Positions 33,726 through 41,300 of a stretch of DNA of 64,000 nucleotides are shown one piece after another. The first letter of the stretch is position 1. Each line of letters starts with the position of its first letter. Under the pieces are notes generated by a model. It did no database searches. It was not told the DNA's origin and saw nothing but the letters and a program-made list of their open reading frames with translations. Source of the stretch: the human T2T-CHM13v2.0 reference genome, Homo sapiens. The translations under genes were made by a program, and so were the position numbers. The stretch lies in assembly GCF_009914755.1 (NCBI RefSeq), contig NC_060935.1. One strand, given 5' to 3'.

Positions 33726-33756
33726 GGCAAGCCTGGGGAAAAAAGAATTCGGCACC

Positions 33757-33783
33757 CTATGAAGTCGGTGAGCGCGCAGACAT
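33757..33783 (-). other. uORF MSARSPTS* in the probable ALG9 5'UTR
   Basis: ATG TCT GCG CGC TCA CCG ACT TCA TAG, ending 31 nt before the main ATG. Confidence 0.5.
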
Positions 33784-34809
33784 AGCTTTGGCTGGCAAAC
33801 GGTGTCCGCCGAGGGACAAAAGACCTTGACATGCGCAGAAAATACTAAATTATAGCGTTACTGGGCCAATTGGGGCAGATCCCCGAGTAGCGAAGAAATA
33901 GAACCTGAGGAGTTTCTTCATCAGGGCTGTCCCATCCACCTGCTTCTAACTCTAGCCATTCCTACCTCCCTCCAACCCTCTTTTCCGTCACTTTTCAGCA
34001 TTCTCCATTCTCAAAAAAAAAAAAAAACCACCTCTCAGCTCCCCTATTTAAATGAAAAAACAAATAGAAAGTGATTAAAGAAATCTACATAGTGAGATGT
34101 GAAGTATTCAGTTAAATATCACAGCACAGCTATCTACTAAAAGGTCCTTAAAATGTCATTTTTAACACCTTGCCTTCTCTGTATTTTGGTAAGAGTGACA
34201 GAGGCAGCCTGTAGCTAAAAACTGCTTCAGAGAGACAAACCGGTAATGGCAGAGTGTAGACTGATGAAATTCTGTGCGGCAAATTGAACCAGATGTCCAT
34301 CACTGTCATCGCTACTACGGCATTGTGGTAGGCATTTTACATATTTTATCCTTTTTAAACTTAATACAACAACCTTGTTTTATTTACCAGGAAACTAAAT
34401 AAACTTGGAGCTAGTAAATGGTGGAGCTATGTTCCAGCCCAGGACTATCTTACCGGAAAGCCCATGCTCTCTCTTCCCACCAGATCTGGTGAAAGGTCTT
34501 CATTTCCTACAATCATTTTTATACTGGCACATTGATGATATCATACCTGTGACCCCCATATCTTGGGGGTCATTCATCTAATCCTGACACTCTATCCACT
34601 CCTCTAATCACAGAGCTATATCCTACCCTGTCGAGCTCCATGCCAGTAACTGGGACAAGTTTATAGAGGGAATGCTAATCTCTTGACAAGGTCTCAGAAG
34701 GTTGTGATTTCCTACTAAAAATTCCCAAGTATTGAAAATGGAGATTGATCATATTGCTCAATTCTCACATGCAGTCATTAGTTACCAAGTTCAAATATCC
34801 AGCTTAACT

Positions 34810-35126
34810 CTTTTTTTCTTTTCTTTTTCTTCTTTTTTTTTTTTTTTTTTTGAGACAAGAGTCTTCCTTGCTCACCCAGGCTAGAGTGCAGTGGCACAAT
34901 CTCAGCTTACTGCAACCTCTGCCCCCTAGGTTCAAGAGATTGTCTTGCCTCAGCCTCCCTAGTAGCAGGGACTATTGCCACCACACTGGCTAATTTTTGT
35001 ATTTTTAGTAGAGATTAGGTTTCGTCATGTTGGCCAGGCTGGTCTGGAACTCCTGGCCTCAAGTGATCCACTTACCTCAGCCTCCCAGAATGCTGGGATT
35101 ATAGGCGTGAGCCACTACACCCAGCC
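34810..35126 (-). mobile_element. Alu (S/J)
   Basis: Alu dimer between the FDXACB1 3' end and the ALG9 promoter. Confidence 0.85.
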
Positions 35127-36712: not shown

Positions 36713-37023
36713 GGCCGGGCGCGGTGGCTCACATCTATAATCCCAGCACTTTGGGAGGCCGACGCAGGCAGATCACGAGGCCGGGAGATTGAGACCATCC
36801 TGGCTAACACGGTGAAACCTCGTCTCTACTAAAAATACAAAAAAAAAAATTAGCCAGGCGTGGTGGCAGGTGCCTGTAGTCCCAGCTACTCGGGAGGCTG
36901 AGGCAGGAGAATGGCATGAACCTGGGAGGTGGAGCTTATAGTGAGCTGATATCATGCCACTGCCACTGCACTCCCGCCTGGGCGGCAGAGCAAGACTCCG
37001 TCTCAAAAAAAAAAAAAAAAAAA
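36713..37023 (+). mobile_element. AluY in the FDXACB1 3'UTR (antisense to the mRNA)
   Basis: AluY diagnostics; TSD aagatcaacNaacagta. Confidence 0.9.
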
Positions 37024-37165
37024 GATCAACGAACAGTAGCTATGGTCACAAAGTAAAAGATTTTACAAAAACAAAAATCCAGAAAGGACTACTGGTTGCA
37101 AGTTGGTAATTTTCCTCCACATCCCCCGCAATGAAGGATCACACTGCAGAAAAGGATTTACCAAA

Positions 37166-38348
37166 CTACCGAGGTATAACATATAGGTGTTGTTGAATCT
37201 CCTTCCTAAACTGGGACTGCATTGATGCTACTTGCTGCTGGGTGAGGGCCTTGTCACAGGTCTGGTAGGTCAATCTATAGCAGAGACTGACCTGTTGAGT
37301 CTTTGGATGCTGGAAACGGCTAAGAAACTGTATGGATATAATAGTGTCCTGAGACACTGCTCGGGCCACAGTGTGAAACTCTAGTTCATCAAATCCTTTC
37401 TTCTGATCTATCCAAAAACTAACATCATGCACATAACATGGAGGATACAGAGAATGACTTTTAAAGGGTTCTATTTTGCCAGGGACAAAATTTTTCAGGA
37501 AACGGTTATCAAACGTCCACAACATTCTCCAGTCAGAGATACACCAGACAAGCATGGCTAATAAGTCCAAGTTCATAGACACAAACACAAAACACTGGTC
37601 TTTATGTATAACACTAGTGGCAGATGTGATAACAGACCCAATAATTAGATCCTCAGTACAATCTGGGCTAAAATTATGAGTCTTCACACGAATCATATAA
37701 TCCTTTCCATTTGACTGAAGGACAAATTTGACTAAACTGCTCAGCTTAGAGCTCTCCGGCAATGTCTGGGTCAGCAGGCTATCTAGAATGCCCTTCAGAT
37801 GATCCAGCAGTGATTGAAGACAGCCATCCTTCAGATTTTGATTAACCCCAAGGATAAATAAAGTTTCATGAAATGCTGGCATTGTGAAAGGCAAAATGTG
37901 GCACTTCTGAAAGACAGGTCCACTGAGGATGTGCAGAGAACCTGAGAGGAAGTCTGGTACTTCGATGACATCCTGAACATGCACTAGGAGAGAAGGTCTA
38001 AGGCAGATCTTGGCCTGGCCACAGGTTCCTTCACAAGCTTCTTCTTTACCATCTCTTCCAGGATTCTTGAGAAGGCTAAGTTCTGAAAATGACACTAGAA
38101 AGTCTTCCACATCTTGTGATGTCCCACCAGTCAGGGACTCAGAATTTGAGTTATCTTCATGGAGACTAATCCAAAAAGCAGCTGACAGAAAGTCACAATT
38201 CCAGAAAGGAAGAACACTGGTACCTTCCTGTGGCAGCAAAGGGTAGGAACACTTCAGCCTTTTTAGCGGGAAAACTTTGCCTAATTCAGCAATGAGTTTC
38301 TCATTTATGGTTTTGATAGGATGACATGAAGGTGCTTCCAGGAAACCC
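37166..38348 (-). CDS. FDXACB1: FDXACB1 exon 5 (1183 nt coding)
   Basis: aacag|[10 protein letters not shown]...QQHLYVIPR*; the 398-aa ORF in the track. Confidence 0.96.
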
Positions 38349-41300
38349 CTGTTTAAACACACACAAAAATAACTTTTCTAACTTAAGATAGTAAATAATT
38401 ATAATGTAGCTAGAATTAAAAATACAAATAGCTGGACAGAAAAGAATTATCTTTAAATTGATCTTGAAAGGAAACAAAGAAATCATCTACCATAAGGAGA
38501 AACAGACGTGTATTTCAGAACTCTGACAGCCACCATCCCTACAATATATCAGAAAATGTGACCATTTATAATTCTAGAGATGCTTAAGGAGGCCAGGCTG
38601 ACAAATAAACATAGCACCAACATCACTAACAATTTATGCACCATCCATTCAATATATGGTTGCCATCAAGACAATCAGGATACAACTGGAGATGGAAGTG
38701 ATTTCCAGCAAAATAACTGGTTACCTGTTCAACTTTCCTACAAGTGCTTCTGGTTCTGGAAAGGAAAACCACTGGTTACCCAGTTTGATCCTGAAGATTC
38801 TGGGTTGAGAACCTTCAAAAGGTAAGCTCCTGGTGAAGATATGGTTCAAAGCACCTTCTACATGAAAGGACTTATCTTGACTCCTGGCAAAATAGACACC
38901 AATATGAAGTCTGTCATTATTAAAATAAGCAAGTATTTTTAGAGACCGAATCAATTAATTGGCAGGGCCTATTGAGTCTGTCTATGAGATTTTGTTATCA
39001 TTAGTGAGAGAGATGAAAACGCAGAAGGCTTAAACCTATGCTATTACCTACCTATATCCAGTGCACTTGTACCCTGCCACAGCCTTACAGCTGAATGGAT
39101 ACACGTCGCTTAAAATGAGCCCCCCCAGGGCTGCCATGGCAACCACTTGCCAACTGTTGTGCCATTCTCTCTGGGGCTTATCCGCAGGAGTTCCACCTTG
39201 TCCTCTACATAATGCCACGTGGACTTCTCCTTCCTCTGCAAGAACGTCTGCACAGCTAATAGGGAGAAAAGAAACACTAACTAATTATCATAAACAAGCA
39301 GAAATTACCACAGGAGTTGGCAACATACACATGGTTTGCCTGTGAAATAATTAAAATCCAATCATACCTATGTGCAAAAATCTATTAGACCTCAAAAAAT
39401 GCAAAGAAAGTAGCTGGAAGTAAATAGAAGCATAAATTAAATGTTCAACCCACTCACTGATAAGATTGGCTGACCAGGGTCTGCTTTGCATTTGTGTCAT
39501 TCATGCATATGTCACAGAAAGATCAATATCTGCACAGTTCCTATATATGATTCATTGCTTAGGCTGTTTCTTCCCATTTAGAAAGTTCTTTTCACTGCCC
39601 TCCTGAAATTCAAATACTAGTTTAAAATACCACCTCTGTCAAAACTTTATTGACAGCTATGCCCCATCGGACACCTCCAATAGTATCATGTCTTGTGGTA
39701 TAATCATGTAAAGCACTGTTTTCAGTTCACAATAATTTTATGAGGCTGTTAGTTACTTTTTTTTTTTTTTTTTTTTTGAGATGGAGTCTTGCTCTGTCGC
39801 CCAGGCTGGAGTGCAGTGGCACGATCTCAGCTCACTGCAACCTCCACCTCCCAAGTTCAAGCGATTCTCCTGCCTCAGCCTCCCAAGTACCTGGGACTAC
39901 AGGCACGTGCCAGCACGGCCAGCTAATTTTTATATTTTTAGTAGAGGCGGGGTTTTGCCACTTTGGCCAGGCTGGTCTCAAACTCCTGACCTCAGGTGAT
40001 CTGCTCACCTCGGCCTCCCAAACTGCTGGGATTACAGGCATGAGCCACCACGCCTGGCCCAGTTAGTTACTATTAATATCCCTAGTTTACAGTTGAGGAA
40101 ACGGAAGCATGTAAAGATTAAGTAAGCTTGCTTAAAATAACAACTGTTGGCCGGGCGTGGTGGCTCATGCCTGTAATCCCAGCACTTTAGGAGGCCAAGG
40201 CAGGCGGATCACAAGGTCAGGAGATCGACACCATCCTGGCTAACACGGTGAAACCCCATCTCTACTAAAAATACAAAAAATTAGCTGGGCGTGGTGGCGG
40301 GCGCCTGTACTCCCAGCTACTTGGGAGGCTGAGGCAGGAGAATGGCGTGAACCCAGTAGGCGGAGCTTGCAGTGAGCCGAGATTGCACCACACCACTGCA
40401 CTCCAGCCTGGGCGACAGGGCGAGACTCTGTCTCAAAAAATAAAAATAAATAAAAATAAAAAAATAACAACTGTTAAGTGGTGGGCTGGGATTTGAATCC
40501 AGGCAGTCTGGCTTCTAAGTGCACGTTCTTAGCCATTAGACTATATGGCTCTCATTATTTTGCACTGTCAAAAATAAATGATCCTCTTTTACACACCCAA
40601 GAGTACATTATTTGTACTTTCATTTAGCATTTAGGGTTTATATATCTGTCTTTCCAACTAAACTTGGGGTTCCTTTGGGGCTTTATAGTCTCTTCTAAAC
40701 ATATCATAGTAGCTTGCACGTGTGCCTTATGTTTGGGTACAGTAACTATGTTATGGACATCTTAAACATTTTCCTTGTGAGGGCGCTCCTTTCCTCACCT
40801 TTGGAAAAATTTGGCAAGCAGTTCCCTGTTCTTAGCTACGCCAGCTTTGCGTCCACAATGCGGGAAGTTGAAATAAATTTGATCAAATTCTCTCTCGTGC
40901 AGTTCAAAGACATCTGCCAGCTGGGTGCAGTCCACACCGAAACGTACATCGATACCTGGCAAAGATAGTTTGGGGGCGCAAAATATAGACAGGAGGATGC
41001 CTCAAGACATGGAACAGAAAAACTCTTCCTAACTTAAACCGTGCAGACCAGCCCAAGTCTGGGCACAAAGCCGGCTTTATGTGAATATCCGTGGGACGAT
41101 CAAGAACAATCTCCACGTGGGTTACATCCCCACGCCCCCACCCTTTCCACTTTGGGACGCGCCGGCCGCTGGGCGGGGTTTCGCAGAGGGGCGGGCTCGC
41201 TACCTCGCTCGCGCAGGCACTGCAGATTCTCCCAGGCCAGTGGATCCCGAGCCAACTCGGCCGGGCGCTGGAGGCAGGTGGCGGTAAGTTGAGTGCTCTG

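What the first reader, a model, noticed from the sequence alone, without database searches (positions are those of the whole stretch)
33726..38725. In-frame FDXACB1-ALG9 read-through: a 3' splice site 7 nt upstream of the ALG9 ATG would fuse a BMT5-like methyltransferase domain to full-length ALG9
SEEN: on the minus strand the ALG9 5'UTR reads ...ctcAc...ttcAt...gaattcttttttccccag|G CTT GCC ATG. That is branch-point-like motifs (A at 33769 and 33760), a pyrimidine tract and a CAG acceptor (AG at 33734-33733). FDXACB1 exon 4 ends in phase 2 (AAC AG|gtaacc, 38725). Splicing out the 4992-nt intron gives ...[11 protein letters not shown]..., exactly in frame, while skipping FDXACB1 exon 5 and its poly(A) sites. 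FDXACB1 exons 2, 3 and 4 all end in phase 2. ALG9 exon 2 (32612) and a second AG 24 nt upstream (33758-57) also accept phase 2, so every combination stays in frame. KNOWN: FDXACB1 exons 1-3 encode the DUF2431/BMT5-like Rossmann SAM domain. ALG9 is a polytopic ER GT-C mannosyltransferase (611/618 aa) whose N-terminus is expected to be cytosolic. INFERENCE: a 233+611 = 844-aa chimera would swap the soluble PheRS-like/FDX-ACB module for an ER anchor, placing a putative RNA methyltransferase next to ER-bound ribosomes. It would also put ALG9 under the FDXACB1/CFAP68 promoter. I recall a read-through gene model at this locus (unverified), so the transcript may be annotated, but I know of no function for it.
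Basis: partly seen in the sequence, partly recalled or inferred. Interest (0 to 1): 0.8.

Follow-up and report, generated by a model that had tools for sequence, protein, structure and literature searches.

The report
FDXACB1-ALG9 in-frame read-through junction
A good splice acceptor 7 bases before the ALG9 start codon lets FDXACB1 transcripts that run on into ALG9 encode an in-frame fusion protein, but this fusion is already in public gene models and looks like an ordinary low-level read-through product.

Summary
There is a CAG acceptor (AG 33734-33733) behind a 13-nt pyrimidine run, 7 nt before the ALG9 ATG. The FDXACB1 exon 4 donor at 38725 is in phase 2, and the join gives an open frame...[11 protein letters not shown].... 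The fusion is not new. In one search, 13 of 108 protein clusters found with the exon-4 peptide carry both the BMT5-like and ALG9 (GT22) Pfam domains, and adds one more. Two macaque entries are 844 aa with exactly the predicted junction, and a galago entry has it too. A separate human Ensembl gene, ENSG00000258529/AP001781.2, overlaps ALG9. It is listed as 'protein_coding, novel protein' with a low, erratic read count. Across the 14 fusion clusters (12 mammal taxa) there are six junction types. The AG is replaced in 3 of 3 non-primate sequences that read through the 5'UTR. The exon-4 junction also cuts into FDXACB1's PheRS-like module. A cytosolic N-terminal fusion is topologically possible. 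Best reading: an annotated, low-level conjoined transcript that is in frame by coincidence of exon phases. A dedicated function is unlikely.

The parts
41204..41375 (-). FDXACB1 coding exon 1 (ends in phase 1); start of the BMT5-like domain
   Evidence: Hub gene table. Phases. Pfam PF10354 covers residues 7-175 of the fusion orthologue P0006.
40799..40955 (-). FDXACB1 exon 2 (ends in phase 2)
39052..39255 (-). FDXACB1 exon 3 (ends in phase 2, residue 178); its end coincides with the end of the BMT5-like domain
   Evidence: The AF2 linker at residues 175-185 has pLDDT below 50.
38725..38883 (-). FDXACB1 exon 4, the donor exon (AAC AG|gt, phase 2). It encodes residues 179-231, including the first strands of the PheRS-like module.
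38723..38724 (-). GT of the exon 4 donor
36300..38348 (-). FDXACB1 last exon, skipped in the fusion. Its acceptor has only 10 of 17 pyrimidines. AATAAA at 36324 lies just before the annotated 3' end at 36300.
   Evidence: hub table.
37286..37294 (-). Consensus-like donor CAG|GTCAGT inside exon 5 (the exon would end at 37292, phase 0). It matches the point where the M. nemestrina models leave FDXACB1.
33760..33769 (-). Two branch-point-like yUnAy motifs (A at 33769 and A at 33760)
33735..33747 (-). 13-nt uninterrupted pyrimidine tract
33733..33734 (-). AG of the candidate 3' splice site (CAG|G)
33726..33732 (-). 7 nt of ALG9 5'UTR (G CTT GCC) that would complete Arg and encode Leu-Ala before Met1
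   Evidence: The same R-L-A-M is present in P0006, P0007 and P0047.
33595..33725 (-). ALG9 exon 1 coding part (131 nt, ends in phase 2)
   Evidence: hub table.
33718..33719 (-). Weak AG inside ALG9 codons 2-3 (GCT AG|T). It matches the junction KLN-S-RG of the ground-squirrel model.
33757..33758 (-). It is weak (11 of 17 pyrimidines, PWM -7.4), lies 2 nt from one branch A, and is part of the uORF stop codon.
32474..32612 (-). ALG9 exon 2 (accepts phase 2). It is the acceptor used by the bat, cattle and tree-shrew fusion models.

Best explanation
This is a conjoined (read-through) transcript family of two tandem minus-strand genes. Some polymerases that start at the FDXACB1/CFAP68 promoter fail to terminate at the FDXACB1 poly(A) site and run 2.5 kb further into ALG9. 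The exon 4 donor, or another FDXACB1 donor, then skips the weak last-exon acceptor. It pairs with the first good acceptor it meets in ALG9: in primates the CAG 7 nt before the ATG, in other mammals ALG9 exon 2.

The frame stays open because FDXACB1 exons 2-4 and ALG9 exon 1 all end in phase 2, and the acceptor happens to lie 7 nt (1 + 6) upstream of the ATG. The mRNA would therefore escape nonsense-mediated decay. It could yield an 844-aa protein with a cytosolic BMT5-like domain, a 53-residue orphan piece, and complete ALG9.

I judge this a minor, lineage-variable by-product that annotators have already captured, not a product selected for a function of its own.

Shown: the sequence features, the open frame, the existence of such models in 12 mammal taxa, and the topological feasibility. 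Inferred: the read-through mechanism, the low abundance and the lack of a dedicated function.
For: - Sequence and frame.
- Both genes lie on the minus strand, 2475 nt apart (hub table). The region between them is AT-rich and non-CpG until the ALG9 CpG island.
- The FDXACB1 last-exon acceptor is the poorest of the 20 annotated acceptors in pyrimidines (10 of 17), against 14 of 17 for the -7 site.
- Public fusion models: 13 of 108 clusters, plus P0122, carry PF10354 and PF03901. The exact predicted junction occurs in P0006 and P0007 (macaques, 844 aa) and P0047 (galago).
- Junction types among the 14 clusters: exon 4 to the -7 site, 3; exon-5 donor keeping L-A-M, 2; exon 4 to the AG inside codon 3, 1; exon 4 to ALG9 exon 2, 4; exon-5 or extra exons to exon 2, 3; exon 1 to an upstream UTR site, 1.
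- P0055 and P0077 are FDXACB1-type proteins named as ALG9 isoforms, so the two genes are merged into one locus in those annotations.
- Human ENSG00000258529/AP001781.2 overlaps ALG9. It is called a putative mannosyltransferase. The supplement of PMC10057398 lists it as 'protein_coding, novel protein' with baseMean 12.7 and zeros in several samples.
- The AG is not conserved. Whale P0119 reads P-T-L-A-M, lion P0122 reads T-S-A-M, and the unnamed P0136 reads T-H-A-G-H-G where human has P-R-L-A-M. In all three the AGG codon is replaced.
- The exon 4 junction is not a domain boundary. The PheRS-like module starts near residue 204 and the junction is at residue 231.
Against: - No human RNA data could be examined, so the abundance of the junction is unknown.
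- No call showed the exon structure of ENSG00000258529. That it contains FDXACB1 exons is my recollection.
- The macaque (EGK_/EGM_) and galago entries may be projections of a human model rather than independent evidence. This too is recollection of how those annotations were made.
- The acceptor is better than chance under local composition (expected 0.0008 per UTR), and in primates the L-A codons are kept. That would also fit weak selection.
- The open frame, intact catalytic domains of both parents and a cytosolic N terminus that tolerates a 27-kDa fusion mean a working chimera cannot be excluded.
- The non-primate evidence on the AG is indirect, being back-read from three protein models. 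The census search for more such models was weak: 1 hit among 9 candidates, and it missed P0119.
Confidence: 0.7

Rival explanations
1. One reading: the 844-aa chimera is made in useful amounts and has its own function. [quoted passage not shown]
For: - The frame is open and both Pfam domains are complete.
- The N terminus is cytosolic and an N-terminal eYFP fusion was expressed.
- The acceptor has 14 of 17 pyrimidines, CAG|G and two branch-like motifs at 26 and 35 nt.
- The same junction is modelled in macaques and a galago.
- Fusion models exist in 12 mammal taxa.
Against: - There are six different junction types and no single conserved product.
- The AG is lost in 3 of 3 readable non-primate sequences.
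- The orphan exon-4 segment breaks the PheRS-like module.
- Counts for the Ensembl gene are low and erratic.
- No paper covers it: 'FDXACB1-ALG9' found 0 papers. Both gene names together found 2 papers (listing only); the word counts are low and neither title or abstract start concerns a fusion. 32 papers name FDXACB1 or LOC91893, and none of the 29 listed titles and abstract starts is a functional study of the gene. I looked into two of them, and they hold only gene lists or a network prediction.
- From general knowledge: yeast Bmt5 acts on pre-ribosomes in the nucleolus, and its target uridine is buried in mature ribosomes.
Confidence: 0.07
2. The -7 acceptor is not used in human at all. The 844-aa entries are annotation artefacts (homology projection or gene merging), and real read-through, where it occurs, goes to ALG9 exon 2.
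For: - RefSeq (hub table) lists 31 ALG9 and 2 FDXACB1 transcripts, none bridging the genes.
- Four of the 14 fusion clusters join exon 4 to ALG9 exon 2, the classic penultimate-to-second-exon pattern.
- The three exact-junction entries come from pipelines that I recall as projection-based.
- The small PWM ranks the site low: 4.1, above only 4 of 20.
Against: - The M. nemestrina Gnomon models also keep the UTR-encoded L-A before Met1, from a different donor.
- The galago entry carries galago-specific residues in ALG9 exon 1 (an extra GSG), so it was read from that genome.
- The site has all the parts of an acceptor.
- A separate Ensembl coding gene exists at the locus.
Confidence: 0.12
3. The pyrimidine tract plus AG is first of all an ALG9 element. 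It could be a pyrimidine-rich 5'UTR or core-promoter motif, or an acceptor for ALG9's own upstream alternative first exons. FDXACB1 read-through would merely borrow it.
For: - It lies inside the annotated ALG9 first exon, 92 nt after the TSS, next to the Kozak region (hub table).
- Whale P0119 and lion P0122 show upstream exons spliced into the ALG9 5' region without FDXACB1 exons 2-4.
- The ATG frame is open 44 codons upstream.
Against: - The hub table shows no human ALG9 exon upstream of 33824.
- The tract is altered in the three non-primate sequences, so it is not a deeply conserved ALG9 element.
- No data here bear on translation control.
Confidence: 0.1

Closest known systems
Ensembl gene ENSG00000258529 (AP001781.2), 'novel protein'
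   Same: It is a separate protein-coding gene model that overlaps ALG9 on chr11 and is described as a mannosyltransferase. I recall it as the FDXACB1-ALG9 read-through model.
   Different: No call showed its exon structure, so identity with the 38725->33732 junction is not shown. It has no described function. Its read count in one RNA-seq study was low (baseMean 12.7).
Macaque proteins EGK_06884 / EGM_06214 (P0006, P0007) and galago H0X7G0 (P0047)
   Same: They have the same architecture and the same junction...[11 protein letters not shown].... The two macaque entries are exactly 844 aa. All carry PF10354 plus PF03901.
   Different: They are predicted models from other primates with no experimental support seen here, and may be projected from a human model (recollection).
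Conjoined genes / transcription-induced chimeras in general
   Same: These are tandem same-strand neighbours where the last exon of the upstream gene is skipped, the splice goes into the 5' part of the downstream gene, and abundance is low. Examples named in material seen here: HSPB2-C11orf52 in the hub table and NPHP3-ACAD11 in the table seen.
   Different: In this case the acceptor lies inside the downstream gene's first exon, 7 nt before its ATG, so full-length ALG9 is kept. The usual pattern joins to the second exon. That usual pattern is also modelled here in bat, cattle and tree shrew.
Parent proteins: FDXACB1 (BMT5-like domain plus PheRS-like/FDX-ACB module) and ALG9 (GT22, GT-C fold, 11 TM helices)
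   Same: The fusion keeps the whole BMT5-like domain and the whole of ALG9. Human ALG9 structures are in the PDB as 9s6s and 9s6u.
   Different: The fusion loses residues 232-624 of FDXACB1. That part is a full structural look-alike of mitochondrial PheRS (Z 30, 345 aligned residues, rmsd 3.3 A).

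Membership tests
Conjoined gene / read-through transcript | Two neighbouring genes on the same strand, with the upstream gene's 3' end close to the downstream promoter | tested here: met
   Both genes are on the minus strand. The FDXACB1 3' end is at 36300 and the ALG9 TSS at 33824, a gap of 2475 nt (hub table; sequence).
Conjoined gene / read-through transcript | Canonical GT...AG sites that can join an exon of the upstream gene to an exon of the downstream gene | tested here: met
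   GT at 38724-38723 and AG at 33734-33733, with a 13-nt pyrimidine tract and branch-like motifs.
Conjoined gene / read-through transcript | An actual human transcript holding exons of both genes | not testable with these tools
   No RNA data are on hand. Indirect evidence: 14 fusion protein clusters from 12 other mammal taxa, and a separate Ensembl coding gene overlapping ALG9 whose exon structure was not seen.
Conjoined gene / read-through transcript | Open reading frame across the junction (for a chimeric protein) | tested here: met
   9 of 9 joins from exons 2-4 are open and 3 of 3 joins from exon 1 are closed.
Functional 3' splice site | YAG with a pyrimidine tract, a branch point 18-40 nt upstream, and no competing AG in between | tested here: met
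   CAG|G with 14 of 17 pyrimidines. Branch-like A at 26 and 35 nt upstream. The only AG between them and the acceptor is 2 nt from the nearer branch A. Whether the site is used was not tested.
Functional 3' splice site | Conservation of the AG in related species | tested here: inconclusive
   R-L-A-M is kept in macaque and galago models. The Arg codon is replaced by Thr (whale), Thr (lion) and His (unnamed P0136). This is indirect, from protein models only, because no mammalian DNA collection is among the tools.
BMT5-like methyltransferase (Pfam PF10354) | A complete domain above the curated cut-off in the fusion | tested here: met
   P0006 residues 7-175, profile positions 1-167 of 168, 159 bits against a cut-off of 24.7. 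The N-terminal G-E-G-N-F-S-F stretch is nearly invariant in 52 orthologues.
BMT5-like methyltransferase (Pfam PF10354) | Methyltransferase activity and a known RNA substrate | not testable with these tools
   None of the 29 listed titles and abstract starts (of 32 papers naming FDXACB1 or LOC91893) is a functional study of the gene. I read passages of two of them.
ALG9 / GT22 mannosyltransferase (Pfam PF03901) | A complete domain, with TM1 kept and the N terminus on the cytosolic side | tested here: met
   P0006 residues 294-715, profile positions 2-414 of 414, 460 bits. [quoted passage not shown] From my reading of the sequences, not from a TM predictor, TM1 lies in exon 2 and is kept in both junction types.

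The most novel reading that the evidence does not exclude
In primates the -7 acceptor has been fixed because a share of FDXACB1 transcription is turned into an ER-anchored BMT5-like methyltransferase fused to active ALG9. That would give a membrane-tethered RNA (or other) methyltransferase on the cytosolic ER face, or a second promoter input for ALG9.
Probability: 0.05. Interest if true: 0.6.

Novelty: already known. Interest (0 to 1): 0.2.

Why it matters
If the chimera were abundant and functional, it would be a rare case of a read-through product that creates a new enzyme location: an orphan RNA-methyltransferase-like domain tethered to the ER. It would also matter for reading ALG9-CDG and ALG9-linked polycystic disease variants near the ALG9 start codon.

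As things stand, its practical value is as a caution in two ways. First, reads and variants at ALG9 can be assigned to a second Ensembl gene (ENSG00000258529), which then turns up as an unexplained 'novel protein' in expression and GWAS tables. Second, several mammalian annotations merge the two genes.

Tried and rejected
- A PWM trained on the window's 20 annotated acceptors was too noisy to rank sites. It favours poly-T runs: the top hits in the would-be intron are T-runs at 37001, 36828 and 34009. I report it but rely on plain pyrimidine counts. No MaxEntScan tables were available.
- A census of models that translate the ALG9 5'UTR returned 1 hit among 9 candidates and missed whale P0119, which one search had found. 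It therefore says little about how many species keep or lose the AG.
- I could not explain the M. nemestrina junction ...KTQQ-LAMASRG. The matching human donor (the exon would end at 37292) is phase 0 and is out of frame with the -7 acceptor. This needs macaque DNA.
- Rfam found nothing at gathering score in 32000-42000.
- Literature searches found nothing on a fusion. 'FDXACB1-ALG9' gave 0 papers. ALG9 plus readthrough gave 8 papers, none about this locus by title and abstract start. FDXACB1 plus ALG9 gave 2 papers, seen as a listing only.
- DNA-level conservation in mammals, human junction read counts, Ribo-seq and proteomics could not be examined with these tools.
- bioRxiv supplements are closed. 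Of the PMC supplements I searched only that of PMC10057398, so supplementary tables elsewhere may list this read-through.

Full report
**1. The observation**

Read on the minus strand, the ALG9 first exon contains ...gaattcttttttccccag|GCTTGCC ATG.
- The AG is at 33734-33733, and an exon starting there would begin at 33732.
- The ALG9 ATG is at 33725-33723, so 7 nt lie between.
- FDXACB1 exon 4 ends AAC AG|gtaacc at 38725.

A script that summed the annotated coding exons gave cumulative lengths of 172, 329, 533 and 692 nt. Exon 1 therefore ends in phase 1, and exons 2, 3 and 4 end in phase 2. ALG9 exon 1 (131 coding nt) also ends in phase 2.

Joining the exons by coordinates gave these results:
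- Exons 1-2, 1-3 or 1-4 joined to 33732, to the upstream AG (exon start 33756) or to ALG9 exon 2 (32612) gave open frames in 9 of 9 cases, through all ALG9 exons held in the window.
- Joins from exon 1 hit early stops in 3 of 3 cases.
- The exon 4 to 33732 junction reads ...[16 protein letters not shown]....

Two yUnAy motifs lie 35 and 26 nt upstream of the AG (A at 33769 and at 33760).

**2. Is it more than chance?**

- The site has 14 of 17 pyrimidines at -20..-4, a 13-nt uninterrupted run, C at -3 and G at +1.
- Of the 20 annotated acceptors in the window, 9 have 14 or more pyrimidines and 2 have a run of 13 or more.
- Of 9030 AGs on both strands of the window, 95 are as pyrimidine-rich with a pyrimidine at -3, and 36 have as long a run. 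That is about 0.03-0.07 expected per 99-nt UTR, before the factor of 1/3 for frame.
- A mononucleotide model of the local GC-rich sequence gives 0.0008.
- A PWM built from only 20 sites scored it 4.1, above 4 of 20 leave-one-out scores, and 606 of 9030 AGs scored as high. That model is dominated by T-runs, and I give it little weight.

That 'every combination' stays in frame follows from two coincidences (the shared phase 2 and the 7-nt spacing), each with odds of about 1 in 3. The feature is a credible acceptor, but its statistical weight is modest because it was picked after the fact.

**3. It is already in the databases**

A search with the exon-4 peptide among longer proteins gave 108 clusters. 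Thirteen of them carry both PF10354 (BMT5-like) and PF03901 (ALG9-like GT22). A second search across the junction region of P0006 added a lion model, P0122.

The 14 fusion clusters come from 12 taxa: three macaques, drill, mouse lemur, galago, tree shrew, ground squirrel, a bat, cattle, camel and lion.

P0006 and P0007 (rhesus and cynomolgus macaque) are exactly 844 aa and read ...[11 protein letters not shown].... The galago entry P0047 has the same junction.

Pfam places a complete BMT5-like domain at residues 7-175 (profile positions 1-167 of 168) and a complete GT22 domain at 294-715 (positions 2-414 of 414) in P0006.

For human, three papers name a separate Ensembl gene, ENSG00000258529 / AP001781.2, that overlaps ALG9.
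- One calls it a putative mannosyltransferase of unknown function (passages of PMC10057398).
- The supplement of that paper lists it as 'protein_coding, novel protein' with baseMean 12.7 and zero counts in several samples.

That this gene is the FDXACB1-ALG9 read-through is my recollection; no call showed its exons. RefSeq, per the hub table, has no bridging transcript among 31 ALG9 and 2 FDXACB1 models.

**4. What the spread of models says**

The 14 fusion clusters use six junction types:

| Junction type | Clusters |
|---|---|
| Exon 4 to the -7 site | 3 |
| A donor inside exon 5, keeping L-A-M (M. nemestrina) | 2 |
| Exon 4 to the AG inside ALG9 codon 3 (ground squirrel; cluster of 26 sequences) | 1 |
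| Exon 4 to ALG9 exon 2 (bat, two cattle, tree shrew) | 4 |
| Exon-5 or extra exons to exon 2 (drill, mouse lemur, camel) | 3 |
| Exon 1 to an upstream site in the ALG9 5' region (lion) | 1 |

Two further entries (armadillo P0055 and tree shrew P0077) are plain FDXACB1 proteins named as ALG9 isoforms, which shows that the pipeline merged the genes.

So read-through from FDXACB1 into ALG9 seems widespread in mammals, but no single product is conserved. The frame is kept mostly because the exon phases of both parent genes are conserved. Pipelines also report mainly the open-frame models.

Three non-primate sequences happen to translate the ALG9 5'UTR in or near the ATG frame:
- Whale P0119 has ...F-F-P-T-L-A-M.
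- Lion P0122 has ...F-S-T-S-A-M.
- The unnamed P0136 has ...F-T-H-A-G-H-G (shifted by one base).

Human has F-F-P-R-L-A-M. In all three the AGG that holds the acceptor AG is replaced by a Thr or His codon, neither of which starts with AG. By this indirect evidence the acceptor is restricted to primates or their near relatives.

The census that should have widened this sample found only P0136 and missed P0119, so it is weak.

**5. The protein that would result**

An AlphaFold2 model of a primate FDXACB1 was built from 52 orthologues (mean pLDDT 76.6, pTM 0.78). It shows:
- the methyltransferase fold up to about residue 163;
- a low-confidence linker at 175-185;
- three strands at 190-220 encoded by exon 4.

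Residues 202/207-624 superpose on nearly the whole human mitochondrial PheRS (chain residues 11/15-414; Z 30, 345 aligned residues, rmsd 3.3 A; Foldseek E 3e-18). Sequence search sees only residues 482-617.

The exon 3/4 boundary (residue 178) is thus the true domain boundary. The exon 4 junction (residue 231) leaves about 25-30 residues of the PheRS-like module without their partner. That is what one expects of opportunistic splicing rather than a designed fusion, although such a piece could serve as a linker.

On the ALG9 side the topology is permissive. [quoted passage not shown] It also says human ALG9 was expressed with an N-terminal FLAG-eYFP fusion (passages of PMC13503287; PDB 9s6s and 9s6u).

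From my reading of the sequences, TM1 lies in exon 2, so both junction types keep it. No TM predictor was run.

**6. Mechanism**

The genes are 2475 nt apart on the same strand. The FDXACB1 3' end at 36300 follows an AATAAA at 36324, and further hexamers lie downstream. The spacer is AT-rich with almost no CpG until the ALG9 island.

The FDXACB1 last-exon acceptor (38348) is the most pyrimidine-poor of the 20 annotated acceptors, at 10 of 17. That may allow occasional skipping when polymerase reads through.

I infer the following. A minority of transcripts escapes cleavage. The exon 4 donor then pairs with the next strong acceptor in ALG9. The open frame, with the stop codon in ALG9's last exon, spares the mRNA from nonsense-mediated decay.

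None of these steps was measured here.

**7. Function and literature**

- No paper in the searched library mentions the fusion ('FDXACB1-ALG9': 0 papers).
- Both gene names occur together in 2 papers. I saw only the listing; the word counts are low and neither title or abstract start concerns a fusion.
- ALG9 plus 'readthrough' gave 8 unrelated papers by title and abstract start.
- 32 papers name FDXACB1 or LOC91893. None of the 29 listed titles and abstract starts is a functional study of the gene. The two I looked into hold only gene lists or a network prediction.

From general knowledge, yeast Bmt5 modifies pre-ribosomes in the nucleolus at a uridine that is buried in the mature subunit.

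**8. Verdict**

- Observation: confirmed.
- Interpretation: partly supported. The transcript and ORF are real as gene models and topologically feasible. A dedicated function is neither shown nor likely.
- Novelty: already known as an annotated read-through or fusion model.
- Interest: low (0.2).
- Boldest reading not excluded: a primate-specific, translated, ER-anchored BMT5-like-ALG9 enzyme, which I put at about 5%.

Noticed in passing
33757-33783 (minus strand): The ALG9 5'UTR holds an 8-codon upstream ORF (ATG 33783-33781, stop TAG 33759-33757, peptide MSARSPTS). It is in a different frame from the main ORF. Splicing to 33732 would remove it.
   Followed up: partly
33726-33857 (minus strand): The ALG9 ATG frame is open for 44 codons upstream, past the annotated TSS at 33824. 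Whale (P0119) and lion (P0122) gene models translate the matching stretch as an N-terminal extension.
   Followed up: partly
37166-38882 (minus strand; FDXACB1 exons 4-5): In an AF2 model of an orthologue, FDXACB1 residues ~204-624 superpose on nearly the whole mitochondrial PheRS (FARS2): Z 30, 345 aligned residues, rmsd 3.3 A. Sequence search detects only residues 482-617. The protein therefore looks like a BMT5-like methyltransferase fused to a complete PheRS-like body, which hints at a tRNA substrate. No functional study was found.
   Followed up: partly
37286-37294 (minus strand): There is a consensus-like donor CAG|GTCAGT inside the FDXACB1 last exon, within the FDX-ACB coding part. It corresponds to the point where the M. 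nemestrina fusion models leave FDXACB1. In human it is phase 0 and out of frame with the -7 acceptor.
   Followed up: partly
P0133 (rabbit ALG9 model); downstream of ALG9, outside the window: A 661-aa rabbit 'mannosyltransferase' carries HEAT-repeat Pfam domains (PF02985, PF13646) together with PF03901. This suggests a second read-through model on the other side, ALG9 into PPP2R1B.
   Followed up: no
P0055 (Dasypus) and P0077 (Tupaia): These are FDXACB1-type proteins (623-624 aa, PF03147 plus PF10354) named 'ALG9 isoform X2/X4' by NCBI. The two genes are merged into one locus in those annotations, which mislabels FDXACB1.
   Followed up: no
36825-37001 and 34009 (minus strand): Long T-runs followed by AG lie in the FDXACB1 3'UTR and in the spacer. 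I take them to be antisense Alu tails; that is my guess, as no repeat family was looked up. They score as the strongest acceptor-like sites in the would-be intron by the crude PWM, so they are potential decoy acceptors for read-through transcripts.
   Followed up: no
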